From a virus: DNA of 64,000 bases. Shown here piece by piece: positions 2,111-28,238 of the stretch. A program made the translations under genes and the position numbers. How positions within the stretch are numbered: the first letter of the stretch is position 1; each line of letters starts with the position of its first letter. Below the pieces are notes generated by a model. That model had not been told where the DNA came from. It made no database searches and worked only from the letters and a program-made list of their open reading frames with translations. The stretch lies in UHGV virus genome UHGV-1363143; one strand, given 5' to 3'.

Positions 2111-3325
2111 TTAGTGGGCCTTATAGTTATATATAGGCTTTATTATTTCAATATCATCTACAGTGTCAACTATGTTTTCTAGAATTTCTTCTATTGGTTT
2201 ATAAGCCATAGGAGCTTCATCAAGAGTTGATTCACATACAGAAGAAGAGTAGATATCTTTCATTGTATCTTTAAACTCTTCTATATTTAATAACTCTTTA
2301 GCTTGACTTCTAGAATATAATCTTCCTGCTCCATGTGGAGCAGAGTAGTTCCATTCTGGATTACCTTTTCCTACAGCTATAATAGATCCATCTCTCATGT
2401 TGATAGGAATCAACACGACTTCGCCATCAGCAGCACTAATTGCTCCTTTTCTTAATATAGGATAACATCCTGTTTTAGAAGTAACATCACAATCAACTTC
2501 AATATAGTTATGAATAGTGTGAAAAGATCTACCTGTTTTTAATTCCATTTTTTCAATAATAATATCCGCTATAGCTTCTCTATTCATTTGAGCATACCAT
2601 TGAGCTATTTTCATATCATGAAGATAGTCATCATAGTTTTTTCCTGCAAGATAACATAATGAATCTGGTATTTTAGGTCCATCTAAGAGCTTTAAAGCTA
2701 CTTGAAGTTCTTTTTCTCTTCCTTCAAGTTTGTATTGAGAGATTATTTTAGCTTTCTCATGTTTATTATCGTTTATAGTTTTAATAGCTAATTTTTGATA
2801 ATACTCAGCTACTTGCTTACCTAGATATCTAGAACCAGAATGAACCACTAAATATAAGTTGCCGTTAGCATCTTTATTTAGCTCTATAAAATGATTTCCG
2901 CCTCCTAGAGTACCTATTGACTTTCTAGCTCTATCTAAATTAATTTGAGACTTGCAAAGTAATTCATTTAAATTTACATACCTATTATAATTATGATCTT
3001 TACTCCTTATGCTCTGCCCTGAAGGAATATATTTTTTAATAACTTCATCTAAAGCTTTTAAATCAATTTCCTTATCTTTTAGTTGTACGCAGAACATTCC
3101 ACATCCTATGTCTACACCTACTAAGTTAGGAACGACTTTACCATGTAAAGTCATTGTTGTTCCTATAGTACATCCAGCACCAGCATGAGTATCAGGCATT
3201 ATTGCAATGTTTGAATCTTTAGCGAACTCTTGATTACACAATTCGATTATTTGAGAGATTGCTAAAGATTCTATATTATCTGTAAATACTTTTGCTTCAT
3301 TATATTTTCCTTGTAATTTAATCAT
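2111..3325 (-). CDS. rtcB: RNA-splicing ligase RtcB (3'-phosphate/5'-OH RNA ligase)
   Basis: RtcB hallmark motifs MPDTHAGAGCTIGTT, GGGNHFIE, APHGAGR; 404 aa. Confidence 0.9.
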   Translation of the reverse strand: MIKLQGKYNEAKVFTDNIESLAISQIIELCNQEFAKDSNIAIMPDTHAGAGCTIGTTMTLHGKVVPNLVGVDIGCGMFCVQLKDKEIDLKALDEVIKKYIPSGQSIRSKDHNYNRYVNLNELLCKSQINLDRARKSIGTLGGGNHFIELNKDANGNLYLVVHSGSRYLGKQVAEYYQKLAIKTINDNKHEKAKIISQYKLEGREKELQVALKLLDGPKIPDSLCYLAGKNYDDYLHDMKIAQWYAQMNREAIADIIIEKMELKTGRSFHTIHNYIEVDCDVTSKTGCYPILRKGAISAADGEVVLIPINMRDGSIIAVGKGNPEWNYSAPHGAGRLYSRSQAKELLNIEEFKDTMKDIYSSSVCESTLDEAPMAYKPIEEILENIVDTVDDIEIIKPIYNYKAH

Positions 3326-24583: not shown

Positions 24584-24603
24584 TGTTCTCTCCTCCTGAA
24601 GTC

Positions 24604-24632
24604 AAATAAAAAAGACCAGTTAATACTGGTCT
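24604..24632 (-). terminator. hairpin + T-run (possible attenuator) immediately upstream of dnaE
   Basis: 8-bp perfect stem agaccagt/actggtct followed by TTTTTTAT on the minus strand. Confidence 0.45.
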
Positions 24633-24638
24633 TTAAAT

Positions 24639-25130
24639 TTATAATATATTATCTAATTCTTTAAATTTATCAAAAATATTAAATTCACAGGCACCATCTA
24701 AGAATTGATAGTTACTGCCATTATCTGTTGTAACATATAAATATTTTACGTCTTTCATCACAAAAGCATTAAGGTCATCAGTCAATTCTTTTGACTCTAT
24801 TATATCTTTATTAGGACCATAATATCTTTTATATGTAGATTTTAGTCCGTCTATCATTGCTCTAAGTGGAACTTTAGCTGGATTATCGTCATATTCTAAA
24901 TCTTCATTTACTGCTTTTAAATCTTTATATCTTTCTTTGTCGATTTTAAGTAAATCGCCTTCCCAAAACAATTCTATTTTCCCAAGAAAAAGTCTACTAA
25001 GTTTTCCACTTCTTTCTTTGGCTATATATATTTTTTCATACGGAACTGTTGTTGTAGACAATCCATAATCAATTATATCCTCACTTCTCAATCTTTTATT
25101 ACCAAATTTTATAAAGCTCAAAATAGCCAC
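24639..25130 (-). CDS. hypothetical protein (probable GTG start)
   Basis: 163-aa ORF; no in-frame ATG near the 5' end. Confidence 0.35.
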   Translation of the reverse strand: MAILSFIKFGNKRLRSEDIIDYGLSTTTVPYEKIYIAKERSGKLSRLFLGKIELFWEGDLLKIDKERYKDLKAVNEDLEYDDNPAKVPLRAMIDGLKSTYKRYYGPNKDIIESKELTDDLNAFVMKDVKYLYVTTDNGSNYQFLDGACEFNIFDKFKELDNIL

Positions 25131-25158
25131 CCTCTCATTTGTGTTTTTATATAATTTA

Positions 25159-25188
25159 TTGTATATTTATTTGAAATTGTGCTATAAT
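25159..25188 (+). promoter_or_regulatory. plus-strand sigma70-type promoter with extended -10 (TTGTAT-N18-TGcTATAAT)
   Basis: TTGTAT at 25159-64; TG at 25180-81; TATAAT at 25183-88. This is the only strong plus-strand promoter-like element found in the window. Confidence 0.45.
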
Positions 25189-25194
25189 ATTAGT

Positions 25195-25291
25195 AAGGAA
25201 AGGTCAAGTGTTACATTTGACCTATGGCTTATGATATGTTAAAGATTAAAGTAGCTTAACTTGGTGAGTGTGGGCTACTTTTTTCTTTTTG
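25195..25291 (+). ncRNA. putative ~95-nt antisense small RNA convergent with, and overlapping the 3' end of, the small membrane-protein gene
   Basis: defined by the upstream promoter and a plus-strand terminator (stem gtagc/gctac 25251-25278 followed by TTTTTTCTTTTT); contains near-palindromic hairpin aggtcaagtgttacatttgacct. Confidence 0.35.
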
Positions 25292-25439
25292 TATCTTTAT
25301 CTTCAGTTACAGACAATTCAGCTGTAACACCATCTATACTTCTATCAACTTTCGTTGAGAATTTCTTTCCAAATACAATCGAAACTATAGCAACTATAGT
25401 TACACTGATTATAAGTAAAGCTTGTATAAATTCTGACAT
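25275..25439 (-). CDS. small single-TM protein, 54 aa (type I toxin-like or holin-like)
   Basis: ATG at 25437-39 with AGGTGG 6 nt upstream; MSEFIQALLIISVTIVAIVSIVFGKKFSTKV... is a hydrophobic helix followed by a charged tail; own extended -10 promoter (TGgTATAAT) at ~25527-25555. Confidence 0.5.
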   Translation of the reverse strand: MSEFIQALLIISVTIVAIVSIVFGKKFSTKVDRSIDGVTAELSVTEDKDTKRKK

Positions 25440-25562
25440 GGATACCACCTTCTTCCCGTCATTAAAATTGCCATAGAGCAATTTGTAACACTCGACCTAA
25501 ATGAAGAAGGATAACTTATCATAAGTTTCCTTACTGAATTATTATACCATAATTGGTATAAG

Positions 25563-26324
25563 CTAAGCTATGTTAACTTTTAAACTTTCTGTTTCTATTG
25601 TTGTTGCATTAAACATATGCAGATCTCCAGTTATTTTATTAAATCCTATAATATTATTTAAAATATTAAAAGTAGTAACTGCACTGGTTATGTTTGCACC
25701 TATGTTTTGAATATTTTCTAACATGATTTCACCACAGCTTGCTGTAGGTTCTTTTATTTCCTCGTCTTCAAGTATTTGAGGAAAGTAAGTACTAGCAGAT
25801 GGAAGTACCACTTCATCACGAGTTCTATAAGCTATTACAGTTTGTCCTGTAAGTTCATCTAAGCTACCACTATTACCAGTATCAATTGCAATAATTCCTG
25901 GGCAATTATGATTAGTAAATTCAAAATCATTAAATGCTTGGTCAATATATTTCCTAGCTTCATTATTATCTACACATGAAACTATTATATTTGTTGTTCC
26001 ATAAGATCTATCTAATAATTTTAAAACATCTTCTTTAGATGATATGTACTTATCGACATAGGATATTTCCATTCCAAATACTGCAGAATACCTATCAGAT
26101 AAAACTTCAGCTTTTAATTTTCCCACATCACTTTCTAAGAATTTTTGTGTTCTTAAATTTTTTTCTTCTACTCTATCACCATCAACTAATATAACTTTAT
26201 GTTTCATATTATAAACCTTGTTATTTCCTATTAGCTGACTTAAAAATGAAATAAGGTGAGAACCAGTCCCACCTACACCTACCACTATTATATTATAAGA
26301 TGAATTCTTTTTAAGCTCTATCAT
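25563..26324 (-). CDS. E1-like adenylating enzyme of the ThiF/MoeB/HesA family
   Basis: VVGVGGTGS Rossmann motif; DGDRVEEKNLRTQ; VSCVDNNEARKYI; C-terminal SCGEIM...AVTTF matches the MoeB CxxxGV region; 253 aa. Confidence 0.8.
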   Translation of the reverse strand: MIELKKNSSYNIIVVGVGGTGSHLISFLSQLIGNNKVYNMKHKVILVDGDRVEEKNLRTQKFLESDVGKLKAEVLSDRYSAVFGMEISYVDKYISSKEDVLKLLDRSYGTTNIIVSCVDNNEARKYIDQAFNDFEFTNHNCPGIIAIDTGNSGSLDELTGQTVIAYRTRDEVVLPSASTYFPQILEDEEIKEPTASCGEIMLENIQNIGANITSAVTTFNILNNIIGFNKITGDLHMFNATTIETESLKVNIA

Positions 26325-26346
26325 TATATTGCCTCCTTACAAGCCT

Positions 26347-26913
26347 TTAGCCTTTAGTTTGGAATTTAAGAAGAACTTCCAATGTTCCAGTAGATTCATC
26401 AAAGTCATAGAATACCTTATCTTTCTTAAAGTTTGGAAAATTATATTCTGTAACTAATTTAACTCTGATATCTTCAAATTTTGCATTGGTATCTTCTTCG
26501 ATATATATTTCTCTACCGAATACTTTAACAATCCTTGGACCATCATATTTAGGTTCTTTTGGTTTTGAACTCTTCTTCTTAGAAGATTTCTTTGCTTCAG
26601 TTTTAGTTCCATCAGGATTTCTATCCTTATCATATTCAACTAAATGATCTATAGCAAAGGCTATTGCATCACATGCATTAGTAAATGCATTTGGATTTAA
26701 TGTAGAATATCCACATTCATTATCTGCAGGAGTTAGAACATCAAATCTTCCATCTCCCCATTCCATTACTCCTATCGTTAAATTTTTATATTTAATTTCT
26801 CTATTTTCTCTAAAGAAAGCCTCAAACTGCTCTCTAGTCATAGACTCTGTAATATTTGTATCCTCCTCATCATGAAGATCGCTTATATAATTAATTGTAT
26901 TTTCTGTTGTCAT
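26347..26913 (-). CDS. protein with a C-terminal ubiquitin-like beta-grasp domain ending in a single Gly
   Basis: C-terminal ~62 aa RIVKVFGREIYIEEDTNAKFEDIRVKLVTEYNFPNFKKDKVFYDFDESTGTLEVLLKFQTKG* has the ubiquitin-like secondary-structure pattern; the ORF ends in Gly immediately before the stop. Confidence 0.5.
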   Translation of the reverse strand: MTTENTINYISDLHDEEDTNITESMTREQFEAFFRENREIKYKNLTIGVMEWGDGRFDVLTPADNECGYSTLNPNAFTNACDAIAFAIDHLVEYDKDRNPDGTKTEAKKSSKKKSSKPKEPKYDGPRIVKVFGREIYIEEDTNAKFEDIRVKLVTEYNFPNFKKDKVFYDFDESTGTLEVLLKFQTKG

Positions 26914-26931
26914 AACATCTCTCTCCTATTC

Positions 26932-27633
26932 TTATCTTAAATTATCTAAAAAGCTTTGATATGTTGGTGTATTGTATGATTGCACTAAAATATTATTATC
27001 AAACGAAGAACCTTCCATTAATTCTAAAAGTTCTTTATATGAAAATGGACTAGAATTACTTCCAATGTACCCATCATTATTATTTGTCATTGATAAAAAC
27101 ATTTCAGGAATCATTACTATATTGCTTAAATCATTTAATTCAAAATCACTTAATGTATTCCCTCCAAGGCATACACTTTTTGTATCGAATACATTACTGT
27201 AAGGGTATCTATATATAGGCATGTCCATAGTTATAGGACCATTTTGCACACATCCTATTCTTAACGAAACGCATTTATTATTACATACTTTAATAGCATA
27301 TAAAGTTCTAGGCATAGCTACTTTCTTGTATACTTTTTTCGCAAGTTTCATATCTGCAGGAACTTGTTCTCTCAATAAAACATACCATTTAGATTTACTA
27401 GAGAATATTTCTTTGACTTGAATTGTAGATATCATATGATCTCCTGGTAGTATATCTGATACTTGAACGTTAGCTGATGAGTTATCAAAATTATCTTCTG
27501 TAGTGGAACAATTTAATAGTGATAATAAAGTTTCAAAACTTATATTTTTATTTGTCTTAACTCCATTTTCATTTTCAACAATAACTTTACAGTAATTACT
27601 ATCATTCAATTCTATGATTGTTCTCTCGCTCAT
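26932..27633 (-). CDS. E2-like (UBC-fold) protein with a variant HPN motif
   Basis: PIYRYPYSNVFDTKSVCLGG corresponds to the UBC HPN(I/V)x3-4GxICL active site with the catalytic Cys conserved; 233 aa. Confidence 0.5.
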   Translation of the reverse strand: MSERTIIELNDSNYCKVIVENENGVKTNKNISFETLLSLLNCSTTEDNFDNSSANVQVSDILPGDHMISTIQVKEIFSSKSKWYVLLREQVPADMKLAKKVYKKVAMPRTLYAIKVCNNKCVSLRIGCVQNGPITMDMPIYRYPYSNVFDTKSVCLGGNTLSDFELNDLSNIVMIPEMFLSMTNNNDGYIGSNSSPFSYKELLELMEGSSFDNNILVQSYNTPTYQSFLDNLR

Positions 27634-28238
27634 TAAGCTACCTCCTTTTCATTTAAAGTTTGTACATTTAATTGTTTTTCATAAAATTCTACTTTTTCCC
27701 TAATCTCTTCTAAAAAGATACAATATGTTTCAAAAAACATATCTATCATAAAATATTCTTCTGGAACAATTATATAAATATAATCATTAAAAATAATCTG
27801 TACATCTGTTACTGTGCTTTCTTCACACATACAGCAATTTTCTGTAAATAATTGAATAAATTTATTTATAAAATCATTGTTATTTAACTTATACTTTATA
27901 AGTTTATCAATATCAGGATTTTCTATTTTCACGGTTAATCCATTTATACAGTCTTTATCATAAGTAGAATATGGTATCTTACCACCTATAGAAATCAATT
28001 CATCTTTCATATACTCATTAGTGCCACAGTAACCAGTTCCTATTGAAGTACCCAAAAGTCCTCCAAGGAATTCTACTTGATCTATGCCTCCATATCCATC
28101 TTCATCAGCCCTTGTATCTATTGTTATATAAGTGCCTTCTTCGTAGATATATCCTAATTTTTTTATTCTCATGCAATTACCTAACATAACTAATTTCCCA
28201 AATAATCTATCTATTTCATCTTCATTAATATCAATCAT
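27633..28238 (-). CDS. hypothetical protein in the Ubl cluster (no JAB/MPN motif)
   Basis: 201-aa ORF whose start overlaps the E2-like gene by 1 nt; no HxHx7Sx2D. Confidence 0.35.
   Translation of the reverse strand: MIDINEDEIDRLFGKLVMLGNCMRIKKLGYIYEEGTYITIDTRADEDGYGGIDQVEFLGGLLGTSIGTGYCGTNEYMKDELISIGGKIPYSTYDKDCINGLTVKIENPDIDKLIKYKLNNNDFINKFIQLFTENCCMCEESTVTDVQIIFNDYIYIIVPEEYFMIDMFFETYCIFLEEIREKVEFYEKQLNVQTLNEKEVA

What the first reader, a model, noticed from the sequence alone, without database searches (positions are those of the whole stretch)
25131..25562. Type I toxin-antitoxin-like locus: small TM protein gene, convergent antisense promoter/terminator unit and flanking 23-bp inverted repeats
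Between the 163-aa gene and the E1-like gene lies an independently promoted minus-strand gene with an extended -10 promoter (TGgTATAAT) and an AGGTGG ribosome-binding site. It encodes a 54-aa protein, MSEFIQALLIISVTIVAIVSIVFGKKF..., consisting of one TM helix and a charged tail. On the opposite strand is the only convincing plus-strand promoter in 64 kb (TTGTAT-N18-TGcTATAAT, 25159-25188), followed ~95 nt later by a plus-strand hairpin + T-run terminator (25251-25291) that overlaps the small gene's stop codon. The resulting sRNA would be fully complementary to the 3' end and 3' UTR of the small-protein mRNA. This is the arrangement of txpA/ratA- and bsrG/SR4-type type I TA loci found in Firmicute prophages. 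In addition, near-identical 23-bp sequences lie in inverted orientation on either side of the small gene: aggtcaagtgttacatttgacct at 25201-25223 and gagcaatttgtaacactcgacct at 25476-25498, the reverse complement of aggtcgagtgttacaaattgctc. The first is itself a near-palindrome. These could be operator sites or the ends of a small mobile or invertible cassette.
Basis: partly seen in the sequence, partly recalled or inferred. Interest (0 to 1): 0.6.

Follow-up and report, generated by a model that had tools for sequence, protein, structure and literature searches.

The report
Phage toxin-antitoxin-like RNA-regulated module
A self-contained 400-base cassette in a giant Clostridium phage encodes a small membrane protein and a convergent antisense RNA, built like a type I toxin-antitoxin system; it belongs to no described family, and its antisense RNA copies the start of the messenger it controls.

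Summary
Window 25153-25554 is a discrete about 400-bp module. It contains a 54-aa gene (N-terminal TM helix, charged tail) with an extended -10 promoter and a 95-nt leader. A convergent plus-strand unit (TTGTAT-N18-TGCTATAAT, about 98-nt RNA, 15-bp hairpin plus U-run over the stop codon) lies opposite.

I found the same architecture in 14 distinct loci: two or three jumbo-phage contigs and several Clostridium chromosomes, in unrelated contexts. Some chromosomal copies are about 91% identical to the phage copy, with sharp ends.

Comparative evidence supports four points:
- The ORF is coding.
- The antisense promoter and terminator are conserved, and the hairpin is more stable in the sRNA sense in 13 of 14 loci.
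- An anti-SD:SD helix is kept by compensatory changes.
- The "23-bp inverted repeats" are part of a roughly 60-bp inverted duplication. The sRNA 5' domain is a same-sense paralog of the mRNA leader, so the leader pairs with the mRNA's own 3'UTR (13-17 bp in every locus, six co-varying positions, wobbles only in the mRNA sense).

Best reading: a new type I toxin-antitoxin-like family in which the sRNA competes with the leader for the 3'UTR. Toxicity and transcripts are untested. The operator and mobile-end readings of the repeats are not supported.

The parts
25153..25554 (.). Whole conserved module, defined by homology boundaries shared with copies in unrelated genomic contexts
   Evidence: blastn of all loci against the window. 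L015-L020 (Clostridium nigeriense, C. lamae, Clostridium sp. HCS.1, a Bacillota MAG) match 25153-25551/25554 at 90-92% and nothing else. L008, L009 and L013 match about 25155-25586 at 74-81%.
25541..25551 (-). mRNA promoter, extended -10 TATGGTATAAT with no good -35. Predicted TSS is about 25534-25535.
   Evidence: An extended -10 is present at the same place in all the loci aligned or read.
25440..25535 (-). mRNA leader (5'UTR, about 95 nt)
25527..25534 (-). Leader 5' end GTAAGGAA (helix A, 5' strand). It can alternatively form the 5' hairpin at 25507-25532 with TCCTT of the anti-SD.
25503..25510 (-). Anti-SD CCTTCTTC, inside the 28-nt insertion that distinguishes the leader from the sRNA
   Evidence: It pairs with GAAGAAGG (25448-25455): 98.7% of cells paired, with compensatory changes and a compensating indel.
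25484..25498 (-). It is complementary to the mRNA 3'UTR at 25201-25215.
25466..25483 (-). Leader hairpin AATTGC-TCTATG-GCAATT. It contains CTATGGC (25470-25476), which is complementary to the 3'UTR at 25222-25228 (helix C).
25445..25455 (-). Shine-Dalgarno region GAAGAAGGTGG
   Evidence: It is sequestered in the predicted fold of the free leader.
25275..25439 (-). 54-aa ORF: TM helix at about residues 4-23 and a charged tail (9 K/R, 6 D/E) ending KRKK
25159..25188 (+). sRNA promoter TTGTAT-N18-TGCTATAAT
   Evidence: It is the only TTGnnn-N16-19-TGnTATAAT site in the window. It is conserved in position and type in 14 of 14 loci, and inter-context homology ends just past its -35.
25193..25290 (+). 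Predicted antisense sRNA, about 98 nt: 5' GUAAGGAAA, palindrome hairpin, linker, terminator hairpin and U-run
   Evidence: No Rfam family matches it.
25201..25223 (.). It is the 5' hairpin of the sRNA. On the mRNA strand its loop and 3' arm pair with E5.
25248..25290 (+). sRNA intrinsic terminator: hairpin 25248-25281 plus U-run 25279-25290. It overlaps the last codons (KRKK) and the stop codon of the ORF.
   Evidence: dG is -16.8 kcal/mol in the sRNA sense and -9.6 in the mRNA sense. The sRNA sense is more stable in 9 of 10 and 13 of 14 loci.
25193..25200 (-). 3'UTR TTCCTTAC (helix A, 3' strand), complementary to the leader 5' end
24611..24634 (-). Nearest canonical minus-strand intrinsic terminator. 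It is the likely end of read-through small-gene transcripts. In relatives the equivalent terminator lies directly after the sRNA promoter.

Best explanation
Window 25153-25554 is an autonomous type I toxin-antitoxin-like module.

Components:
- The minus strand gives an mRNA from a sigma-A-type extended -10 promoter. It encodes a 54-aa membrane peptide, the presumed toxin.
- The plus strand gives a roughly 98-nt antisense sRNA, the presumed antitoxin. Its own terminator overlaps the ORF's 3' end. It is fully complementary to the last 16 nt of the gene (four sense codons plus the stop and one base) and to the 3'UTR.
- The free mRNA leader folds so that an anti-SD (CCUUCUUC) sequesters the SD.
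- The leader also carries three blocks (GUAAGGAA, E5, CUAUGGC). These are same-sense copies of the sRNA 5' domain, so they pair with the mRNA's own 3'UTR when transcription reads through to the downstream terminator.

Inferred mechanism:
- Without sRNA, the 5'-3' pairing holds the leader in a form where the nested fold leaves the SD open.
- The sRNA, being a perfect complement, out-competes the leader for the 3'UTR.
- The released leader then snaps into the SD-sequestered fold, and the RNA duplex is a substrate for RNase III.

What is shown and what is inferred:
- Shown by sequence comparison: the anatomy, its conservation, the covariation and the module's autonomy.
- Inferred only: the transcripts, the toxicity, the direction of the switch and any role of RNase III.
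For: Module autonomy:
- The same architecture occurs in 14 distinct loci. These are jumbo-phage contigs (window, L004, L031) and Clostridium chromosomes or MAGs, in unrelated neighbourhoods.
- The neighbourhoods include DEAD helicase/ferredoxin, ribU/dnaX, IS30/FtsW, an integrase, and Xre-type repressors.
- Homology boundaries are sharp, at 25153 and 25554.

Coding:
- The small-protein family retains MSEFIQAL plus a TM helix plus a K-rich tail at 48-57 aa.
- Variable columns by codon position are 23/9/30.

sRNA:
- A TTGnnn-N17/18-TGnTATAAT promoter and a GUA(A)GG start are present in 14 of 14 loci.
- The predicted RNA is 92-110 nt and ends in a hairpin plus U-run.
- The hairpin is more stable in the sRNA sense in 13 of 14 loci. 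In L027 it is followed by a U-run only in the sRNA sense.

RNA structure:
- On 10 close loci, 96% of cells are paired, 8 pairs have changes on both sides, and 0 of 500 shuffles reach this. Slid controls give 37-52%.
- The anti-SD:SD helix keeps pairing through substitutions and a compensating indel, for example CCTTCTCC/GGAGAAGG, CCTTCTTTCTT/AAGAAAGAAGG and CCTCTTCCG/CGGAGGAGG.
- E5 pairs with the 3'UTR over 13-17 contiguous bp in all 14 loci. Six positions change on both sides, and there are 5 G-U states. The single A-C state comes from the L009 indel register.
- Cognate pairing (0.96) exceeds non-cognate pairing (0.86).
- The cognate duplex is far more stable than shuffled controls, with z from -1.9 to -10.

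Read-through:
- A canonical mRNA-sense terminator lies just beyond the sRNA promoter in 8 of 14 loci; L027 has one only about 130 nt further on.

Thermodynamics:
- In the window, the probability that the SD is unpaired is 0.27 for the short mRNA, 0.96 for the long mRNA and 0.28 for the long mRNA with the 3'UTR blocked. Seven of 10 loci show the same trend.

Precedents:
- SR4 binding at the 3' end of bsrG extends SD sequestration (PMC3834814).
- C. difficile type I TAs have 50-53-aa toxins, 83-88-nt leaders, sequestered RBSs and convergent sRNAs overlapping by about 130 nt (PMC5961336).
- SD/anti-SD, terminator stem-loops and 5'-3' long-distance interactions are the recognised determinants of type I toxin mRNAs (PMC8594479).
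Against: - No expression data exist for either RNA, and there is no toxicity test.
- The protein hits no known toxin family (Pfam, NCBIfam, PHROGs, PADLOC). hhalign against TxpA gives 0.1% probability.
- The bidirectional hairpin may terminate much of the mRNA before the palindrome, particularly in L009 and L015-L019. In that case the 5'-3' pairing would form only in read-through transcripts.
- The prediction that the SD is open in the long form ignores a possible pseudoknot between the anti-SD and the SD. Three of 10 loci (L004, L009, L013) do not show the predicted trend.
- Wobble directionality rests on only about 5 independent events.
- L014 carries an intact ORF homolog without the sRNA part.
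- In the window there is no terminator between the upstream E1-like gene and the module. Read-through transcripts with a different 5' end are therefore likely.
- The benefit of an addiction-type module to a lytic-looking jumbo phage is unclear.
Confidence: 0.62

Rival explanations
1. The RNA architecture is the same, but the logic is hok/aapA1-like. The full-length mRNA with 5'-3' pairing is the locked, translationally inert and stable form, with the anti-SD still pairing the SD as a pseudoknot. The sRNA acts mainly by triggering duplex-dependent decay, or by acting on a processed form, and not by refolding the leader.
For: 5'-3' long-distance interactions that lock full-length toxin mRNAs are an established theme (PMC8594479, and hok/Sok and aapA1/IsoA1 from general knowledge). 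In the paired state the leader 5' end (GUAAGGAA) is occupied. That frees UCCUU of the anti-SD from the competing 5' hairpin, which is itself conserved at 93% paired. Nested-fold software cannot evaluate the pseudoknot. Three of 10 loci do not show SD opening in the long form.
Against: No processing signals have been identified. The nested thermodynamic model in 7 of 10 loci predicts higher SD accessibility in the long form. Under this logic, sRNA binding that releases the leader 5' end could open the SD, which is awkward for an antitoxin.
Confidence: 0.2
2. The small protein is not a toxin. It is an ordinary small membrane protein (for example a phage or host membrane modulator, a holin-like factor or a superinfection-exclusion factor) whose expression is tuned by a cis-antisense RNA. 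The module is antisense-regulated but is not a toxin-antitoxin pair.
For: There is no homology to any validated toxin. The hydrophilic tail is fairly long (30 aa) and well conserved (VTAELSVT invariant), which hints at a specific interaction beyond membrane damage. L014 keeps the ORF without the sRNA. The module holds a conserved position upstream of the PolIII-alpha gene in at least three phage contigs.
Against: Solo 400-bp copies sit between housekeeping genes in several Clostridium chromosomes. An intact copy also survives inside a decayed phage fragment. Both are typical of selfish, addictive modules. Multi-layer translational silencing (anti-SD, long-distance pairing, antisense RNA) is characteristic of toxic products. 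Size, TM helix and K-rich C-terminus fit the type I toxin profile (PMC6563280).
Confidence: 0.13
3. The inverted repeats act at the DNA level. They would be operator sites for a repressor controlling both convergent promoters, or the ends of a small mobile or invertible cassette.
For: The two promoter-leader regions form imperfect inverted repeats near the module ends. The module has clearly moved between phage and chromosomes with sharp boundaries.
Against: The repeats are transcribed parts of both RNAs, at about +9 to +31 in the sRNA and +37 to +51 in the mRNA leader. No regulator or recombinase travels with the module in its many contexts. Changes co-vary between the two copies, with G-U tolerance in one strand sense only. 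Orientation relative to the PolIII-alpha gene is the same in the window, L004 and L031. The motif occurs nowhere else in the 64 kb. No target-site duplication was evident.
Confidence: 0.04
4. There is no functional plus-strand RNA. The conserved 3' region is just the small gene's 3'UTR with stabilising or terminating hairpins, and the plus-strand promoter-like site is fortuitous in AT-rich DNA.
For: TGNTATAAT is not enriched in the window. There are no expression data. The palindrome hairpin in L027 is better in the mRNA sense.
Against: The promoter (-35, spacing, extended -10, start context) is kept in 14 of 14 loci while surrounding sequence diverges, and inter-context homology ends right after its -35. 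The hairpin with a following U-run is systematically stronger in the plus sense. It is the only full TTGnnn/extended -10 site in the 64 kb.
Confidence: 0.05

Closest known systems
bsrG/SR4 and txpA/RatA (Bacillus subtilis prophage type I TA systems)
   Same: Both have a small TM toxin with a charged C-terminus and a convergent sRNA overlapping the 3' end and 3'UTR of the toxin mRNA. The SD lies in a double-stranded region. In bsrG/SR4, antitoxin binding at the 3' end alters the SD helix at a distance, in addition to promoting decay (PMC3834814). Both have a phage or prophage location (PMC6563280).
   Different: There is no sequence similarity (hhalign against TxpA gives 0.1% probability; the TxpA sequence was recalled from memory). 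Here the sRNA 5' domain is a same-sense paralog of the mRNA leader, so the leader competes directly with the sRNA for the 3'UTR. To my knowledge this has not been described for SR4 or RatA. The sRNA terminator lies inside the ORF's last codons.
Clostridioides difficile CD2517.1-RCd8, CD2907.1-RCd9 and CD0956.2-RCd10 type I TA systems
   Same: The host clade is the same (Clostridia). Toxins are 50-53 aa with an N-terminal TM helix and a lysine-rich tail. mRNAs are about 300 nt with 83-88-nt leaders and a sequestered RBS. Convergent sRNAs overlap by about 130 nt. They occur in phages and prophages (PMC5961336, PMC6563280).
   Different: A profile search of 1.84 billion representatives found only 10 proteins, all of this small family and with no named relative. 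No sigma-B promoter or CRISPR association was seen here. The present copy is in a 240-kb jumbo phage and as solo insertions between housekeeping genes. I could not check whether RCd RNAs share the leader and sRNA paralogy.
hok/Sok (E. coli and plasmid R1) and aapA1/IsoA1 (Helicobacter pylori)
   Same: The toxin mRNA has a 5'-3' long-distance interaction plus anti-SD sequestration, which are recognised determinants of type I toxin mRNAs (PMC8594479, PMC6733600).
   Different: In those systems the antitoxin pairs with the 5' leader and the 3' end acts as the lock. Here the antitoxin pairs with the 3' partner of the long-distance interaction, a mirror-image layout. There is no protein homology, and the host is Gram-positive.
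par locus of pAD1 (fst RNA I / RNA II, Enterococcus faecalis)
   Same: The RNAs are convergent and share a bidirectional terminator hairpin. Repeated sequence elements near the 5' ends of both RNAs are central to regulation (general knowledge; not tested here).
   Different: In par the repeats are direct at the DNA level, so the two RNAs are complementary at their 5' ends and the antitoxin masks the RBS region. Here the repeats are inverted, so the two RNAs are identical in sense there and cannot pair through them beyond 7 nt.

Membership tests
Type I toxin-antitoxin system (generic) | Small (<60 aa) hydrophobic protein with a TM helix and a charged C-terminus | tested here: met
   The protein is 54 aa. 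Kyte-Doolittle 19-residue window means reach 2.2-2.7 over the N-terminal region. The tail has 9 K/R and 6 D/E and ends KRKK. The family is conserved.
Type I toxin-antitoxin system (generic) | cis-encoded antisense RNA overlapping the toxin mRNA | tested here: inconclusive
   The promoter, the roughly 98-nt length and an orientation-specific terminator are conserved in 14 of 14 loci. No transcript data are available.
Type I toxin-antitoxin system (generic) | Toxin mRNA structure that sequesters the SD (anti-SD), with or without a 5'-3' long-distance interaction | tested here: met
   The anti-SD:SD helix is 98.7% paired with compensatory changes. The long-range helices are 95-97% paired, and no shuffle out of 500 reaches the observed value. 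The pattern extends to distant loci.
Type I toxin-antitoxin system (generic) | The protein is toxic when expressed, and the sRNA neutralises it | not testable with these tools
   This requires inducible expression with and without the sRNA.
Type I toxin-antitoxin system (generic) | Stable toxin mRNA and labile antitoxin RNA | not testable with these tools
   This requires rifampicin half-life measurements.
TxpA/BsrG, Fst/Ldr, Hok and other named toxin families | Sequence homology of the toxin to the family profile | tested here: not met
   There are no hits in Pfam-A, NCBIfam, PHROGs or PADLOC. hhalign against TxpA gives 0.1% probability.
Known antitoxin or sRNA families in Rfam | Covariance-model match at the gathering threshold | tested here: not met
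   The best overlapping hit is AaHKsRNA82 at 20 bits against a gathering score of 51, E=9.3.
C. difficile CD2517.1/CD0956.2 toxin family | Sequence homology to those toxins | tested here: inconclusive
   The profile search returned only 10 unnamed small proteins of this family.
Mobile or invertible DNA cassette | Terminal inverted repeats at the element ends, a recombinase or transposase, target-site duplication or both orientations | tested here: not met
   The repeats are internal and transcribed. No recombinase travels with the module. Orientation is constant in the three phage contigs. The empty-site test was not possible.

The most novel reading that the evidence does not exclude
This would be a previously undescribed type I TA family with an antitoxin that acts as a molecular mimic. 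The sRNA's 5' domain is a maintained paralog of the toxin mRNA leader. It acts by displacing the leader from the mRNA's own 3'UTR, flipping a three-state leader (5' hairpin, anti-SD:SD, 5'-3' pairing) into the silent fold. The 400-bp module would be exchanged as a unit between jumbo phages and Clostridium chromosomes. It would be the first such system described in a jumbo phage.
Probability: 0.35. Interest if true: 0.72.

Novelty: new variant of a known kind. Interest (0 to 1): 0.58.

Why it matters
Type I TA systems are hard to find because neither the toxins nor the RNAs are conserved between families. Here comparative sequence alone delivers several things:
- a complete new family: promoters, sRNA, terminator, anti-SD and long-distance pairing;
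- about 14 natural variants that already behave like a compensatory-mutation series;
- cultured carrier strains in which to test it.

If the leader-mimic competition is real, it adds a new regulatory principle to antisense control: the antitoxin targets the 3' partner of a 5'-3' lock.

The near-identical 400-bp copies in a 240-kb phage and between housekeeping genes of several Clostridium species document recent phage-host exchange of such a module. An intact copy also survives inside a decayed phage fragment.

The family could also supply a compact counter-selection or kill-switch cassette for Clostridia, as the C. difficile systems have done.

Tried and rejected
- blastn of 24600-26400 against 50,697 phage records: no match.
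- tblastn of the 54-aa protein against phages and plasmids: no match.
- Rfam at E<=10: only chance hits.
- Pfam, PHROGs, NCBIfam and PADLOC for the small protein and the 163-aa neighbour: nothing.
- hhalign against TxpA: no relation.
- Enrichment of TGNTATAAT in the window: none, 8 sites against 11 expected.
- Generic promoter/terminator scan: it did not list any of the three key signals.
- Other copies of the repeat, or of the TATAAT-N5-GTAAGGA start context, in the window: none beyond chance.
- IMG/VR scan with CCTTACTWATATTATA: 119 or more stretches, but only the already known 241-kb UViG carries the module, so the rest are chance AT-rich matches.
- sRNA pairing with the leader element E5: rejected, because they are the same sense and only the 7-nt palindrome arms could pair.
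- A peptide encoded on the sRNA (11-codon ATG ORF at 25224): rejected, because there is no SD and it is not conserved in L008.
- Literature search for type I TA in jumbo phages: nothing specific.
Full report
**1. Observation**

- The ORF is at 25275-25439 on the minus strand and encodes 54 aa (MSEFIQALLIISVTIVAIVSIVFGKKFSTKVDRSIDGVTAELSVTEDKDTKRKK). GAAGAAGGTGG lies 5 nt upstream of the ATG.
- An extended -10 (TATGGTATAAT, 25541-25551) lies upstream on the minus strand.
- On the plus strand, TTGTAT-N18-TGCTATAAT spans 25159-25188.
- A hairpin (25248-25281) with TTTTTTCTTTTT (25279-25290) contains the stop codon.
- The two repeat copies are at 25201-25223 and 25476-25498.

Within the window the statistics are mixed.
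- TGNTATAAT alone is not enriched, at 8 sites against 11 expected.
- The generic scanner listed none of the key signals.
- The complete TTGnnn-N16-19-TGnTATAAT pattern occurs exactly once on either strand of the 64 kb, at this site.
- The 15-mer AGGTCRAGTGTTACA occurs only at the two repeat positions.

The 23-mers are near-identical only over 15 nt.

**2. Context**

The window has about 30% G+C, and all genes of 90 aa or more that look real are on the minus strand. It encodes NrdD, GroEL, primase, helicases, RtcB, PolIII-alpha, an NAD-type ligase-sized gene and FolD.

It is 91-94% identical to a 241-kb IMG/VR contig, so it is a jumbo phage. Upstream of the finding lies an E1-like (ThiF) and Prok-E2_D-like cassette. 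Downstream are a 163-aa ORF and the PolIII-alpha gene.

**3. A discrete 400-bp module**

Protein and DNA searches recovered the small gene in 14 distinct versions. blastn of all loci against the window shows three patterns.
- Copies in Clostridium nigeriense, C. lamae, Clostridium sp. HCS.1 and a Bacillota MAG match only 25153-25554, at 90-92% identity.
- More distant copies (L008, L009, L013) match the same span at 74-81%.
- The Clostridium sp. DSM 100503 chromosome carries 1.33 kb that is 86% identical to 25014-26339. There the E1-like gene has decayed, the module is intact, and an IS30-like gene cuts the fragment.

The neighbourhoods are unrelated: DEAD helicase/ferredoxin, ribU/dnaX, a phage integrase, Xre-type repressors and SocA/methylase. 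Homology begins at the mRNA -10 and ends just beyond the sRNA -35. The unit that moves and persists is therefore exactly the span from promoter to promoter.

**4. The ORF is a gene but belongs to no known family**

- Family members of 48-57 aa keep M-S/T-E/D-F-I/V-Q-A-L, a TM helix and a charged, K-rich tail.
- Variable alignment columns fall 23/9/30 on codon positions 1/2/3.
- Pfam, NCBIfam, PHROGs and PADLOC give nothing.
- A profile search of 1.84 billion representatives finds only 10 unnamed small proteins.
- TxpA is unrelated by hhalign.

**5. The antisense RNA**

- All 14 loci keep TTG(T/A)AT-like -35, 17-18 nt, TGnTATAAT, then about 4 nt and GUA(A)GG.
- The predicted RNA is 92-110 nt and ends in a hairpin followed by 5-8 U.
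- The U-run is the complement of the codons for the terminal lysines.
- Because of G-U pairs in the inner stem, the hairpin region is much more stable in the sRNA sense. In the window it is -16.8 against -9.6 kcal/mol. The sRNA sense wins in 9 of 10 loci and 13 of 14 loci.
- In L027 the hairpin has a U-run only in the sRNA sense.
- No Rfam family matches.

This is good comparative evidence for a real plus-strand transcription unit, though no expression data exist.

**6. The leader**

The free leader folds with CCUUCUUC (25503-25510) paired to GAAGAAGG of the SD. Across loci the helix is maintained by substitutions on both sides and by a compensating one-base deletion on each strand. Examples are CCUUCUUCCCA/UGGGAAGAAGG, CCUUCUCC/GGAGAAGG, CCUUCUUUCUU/AAGAAAGAAGG, CCUCUUCCG/CGGAGGAGG and GCCUUUUCUC/GAGAGAAGGC. 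A competing 5' hairpin (AAGGA...UCCUU) and a small hairpin (AAUUGC...GCAAUU) are also conserved.

**7. What the inverted repeats are**

Aligning the sRNA 5' region with the mRNA leader shows an inverted duplication of about 60 bp:

AATT.TG.TATAAT..T.AGTAAGGAA[28-nt insertion]AGGTC.AGTGTTAC.A.TTG..CTATGGC

The insertion is present only in the leader, and it carries the anti-SD.

Because the sRNA is the complement of the mRNA 3'UTR, the leader is complementary to its own 3'UTR in three blocks: GUAAGGAA:UUCCUUAC, E5:UGUAACACUUGACCU and CUAUGGC:GCCAUAG. The evidence for this pairing is as follows.
- On the 10 close loci the combined structure is 96% paired, with 8 pairs changed on both sides. No shuffle out of 500 reaches this, and slid controls give 37-52%.
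- With the four distant loci added, E5 pairs over 13-17 contiguous bp in every locus.
- Six of the 14 core positions show fully compensatory states, for example GUGUUACA/UGUAACAC, GUAUUGCA/UGCAAUAC, GCGUUAUU/AAUAACGC, GUAUGAGAU/AUCUCAUAC, GUAUUGGU/ACCAAUAC and GUGUUAG/CUAAC.
- There are five G-U states, all in the mRNA sense. The single A-C comes from an indel register in L009.
- Helix A, invariant among the close loci, changes on both sides in L023, L029 and L031.
- Cognate pairing (0.96) exceeds non-cognate pairing (0.86).
- Cognate duplex energies lie far beyond shuffles.

The two RNAs are same-sense in these blocks, so they cannot pair with each other there. The covariation is best explained by intramolecular pairing between the leader and the 3'UTR in read-through mRNA. 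The sRNA would be a perfect-match competitor for the same 3'UTR.

Read-through is plausible. In 8 of 14 loci a canonical mRNA-sense terminator lies immediately after the sRNA promoter, 122-146 nt past the stop. In the window that terminator (24611-24634) is displaced by the 163-aa gene.

**8. Mechanism (inference)**

- RNAfold puts the short mRNA and the 3'UTR-blocked long mRNA in the SD-sequestered fold.
- It puts the free long mRNA in the 5'-3' paired fold, with the SD in a loop.
- In the window the SD unpaired probabilities are 0.27 (short), 0.96 (long) and 0.28 (long, 3'UTR blocked). Seven of 10 loci show the same direction.

I therefore propose that the sRNA acts by capturing the 3'UTR. 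This releases the leader into the silent fold and creates a long duplex for RNase III. It is a more direct version of the action at a distance shown for SR4 on bsrG (PMC3834814).

Two caveats apply. Nested folding cannot assess an anti-SD:SD pseudoknot in the paired state. Three loci also do not follow the trend. A hok/aapA1-like "locked inert full-length mRNA" logic therefore remains a serious rival.

**9. Comparison with known systems**

The anatomy carries the recognised determinants of type I toxin mRNAs: SD/anti-SD, a 5' stem-loop, a terminator stem-loop and 5'-3' long-distance interaction (PMC8594479). Its dimensions match the C. difficile systems, with 50-53-aa toxins, 83-88-nt leaders and convergent overlapping sRNAs (PMC5961336, PMC6563280).

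It differs in four ways.
- It has no sequence relationship to any named family.
- The antitoxin targets the 3' partner of the long-distance interaction.
- The antitoxin is a paralog of the leader.
- It occurs in a jumbo phage and as solo insertions between housekeeping genes.

I file it as working like a type I TA. It is not a member of TxpA/BsrG, Fst, Hok or any other named family.

**10. Open points**

Transcripts, toxicity and antitoxin activity are untested. L014 keeps the ORF with different UTRs and no sRNA part. The role in the phage (addiction in a carrier state, host shut-off, exclusion, or mere hitch-hiking) is unknown.

Noticed in passing
window 24639-25130 (-): The 163-aa ORF is an indel. 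It is absent from the 91-94%-identical 241-kb UViG, where the module is followed directly by a terminator and the PolIII-alpha gene. A 5' remnant is present in Clostridium sp. DSM 100503. It sits exactly between the sRNA promoter and the mRNA-sense terminator (24611-24634), so it may be co-transcribed with the small gene. It has no family hits. Its likely true start is the TTG a few codons downstream of the listed GTG, with GAGGGTGG as its RBS.
   Followed up: partly
window 25563-28238 (-): This is an E1-like ThiF gene (253 aa), a 188-aa ORF, a Prok-E2_D-like gene (233 aa) and a 201-aa ORF. Together they form a PRTRC-like or E1-E2-type cassette inside a jumbo phage. PADLOC E1-E2 and BilD models hit the E1 weakly. 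There is no terminator between it and the small-gene module.
   Followed up: partly
L005 3105-4428 (Clostridium sp. DSM 100503, JANKAF010000014.1): This is 1.33 kb of jumbo-phage-like DNA, 86% identical to window 25014-26339, in a bacterial chromosome. The E1-like gene has decayed into small ORFs, the small-gene module is intact, and the fragment is truncated by an IS30-like transposase next to FtsW/FHA/UvrA genes.
   Followed up: partly
L014 1-480 (SRR6202093_865): An intact 56-aa homolog (87% identical) has a different leader and 3' flank. It has no anti-SD, palindrome, sRNA promoter or terminator, and is followed by GntR and ABC-transporter genes. This is an orphan copy that the TA model does not explain.
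   Followed up: partly
L031 648-1100 (SRR21291460_23435): A strongly diverged copy of the module again sits directly upstream of a PolIII-alpha-like gene (..NYIPLHMHY). This suggests an old, conserved position in this phage lineage.
   Followed up: no
L015/L018 about 3285-3320; L017 likewise: The mRNA-sense terminator just beyond the sRNA promoter begins AGGTCAAGT / AGGCCAAGC. It resembles the E5 and palindrome motif and may be a third copy of the repeat.
   Followed up: no
window 1-64000: All credible genes are on the minus strand, with uniformly negative GC skew. No tRNA genes are present. The predicted sRNA is the only plus-strand transcription unit suggested by a full sigma-A-type promoter.
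   Followed up: partly
window 25224-25259 (+): There is an 11-codon ATG ORF (MAYDMLKIKVA) inside the predicted sRNA. It has no SD and is not conserved in L008, so it is probably meaningless.
   Followed up: partly
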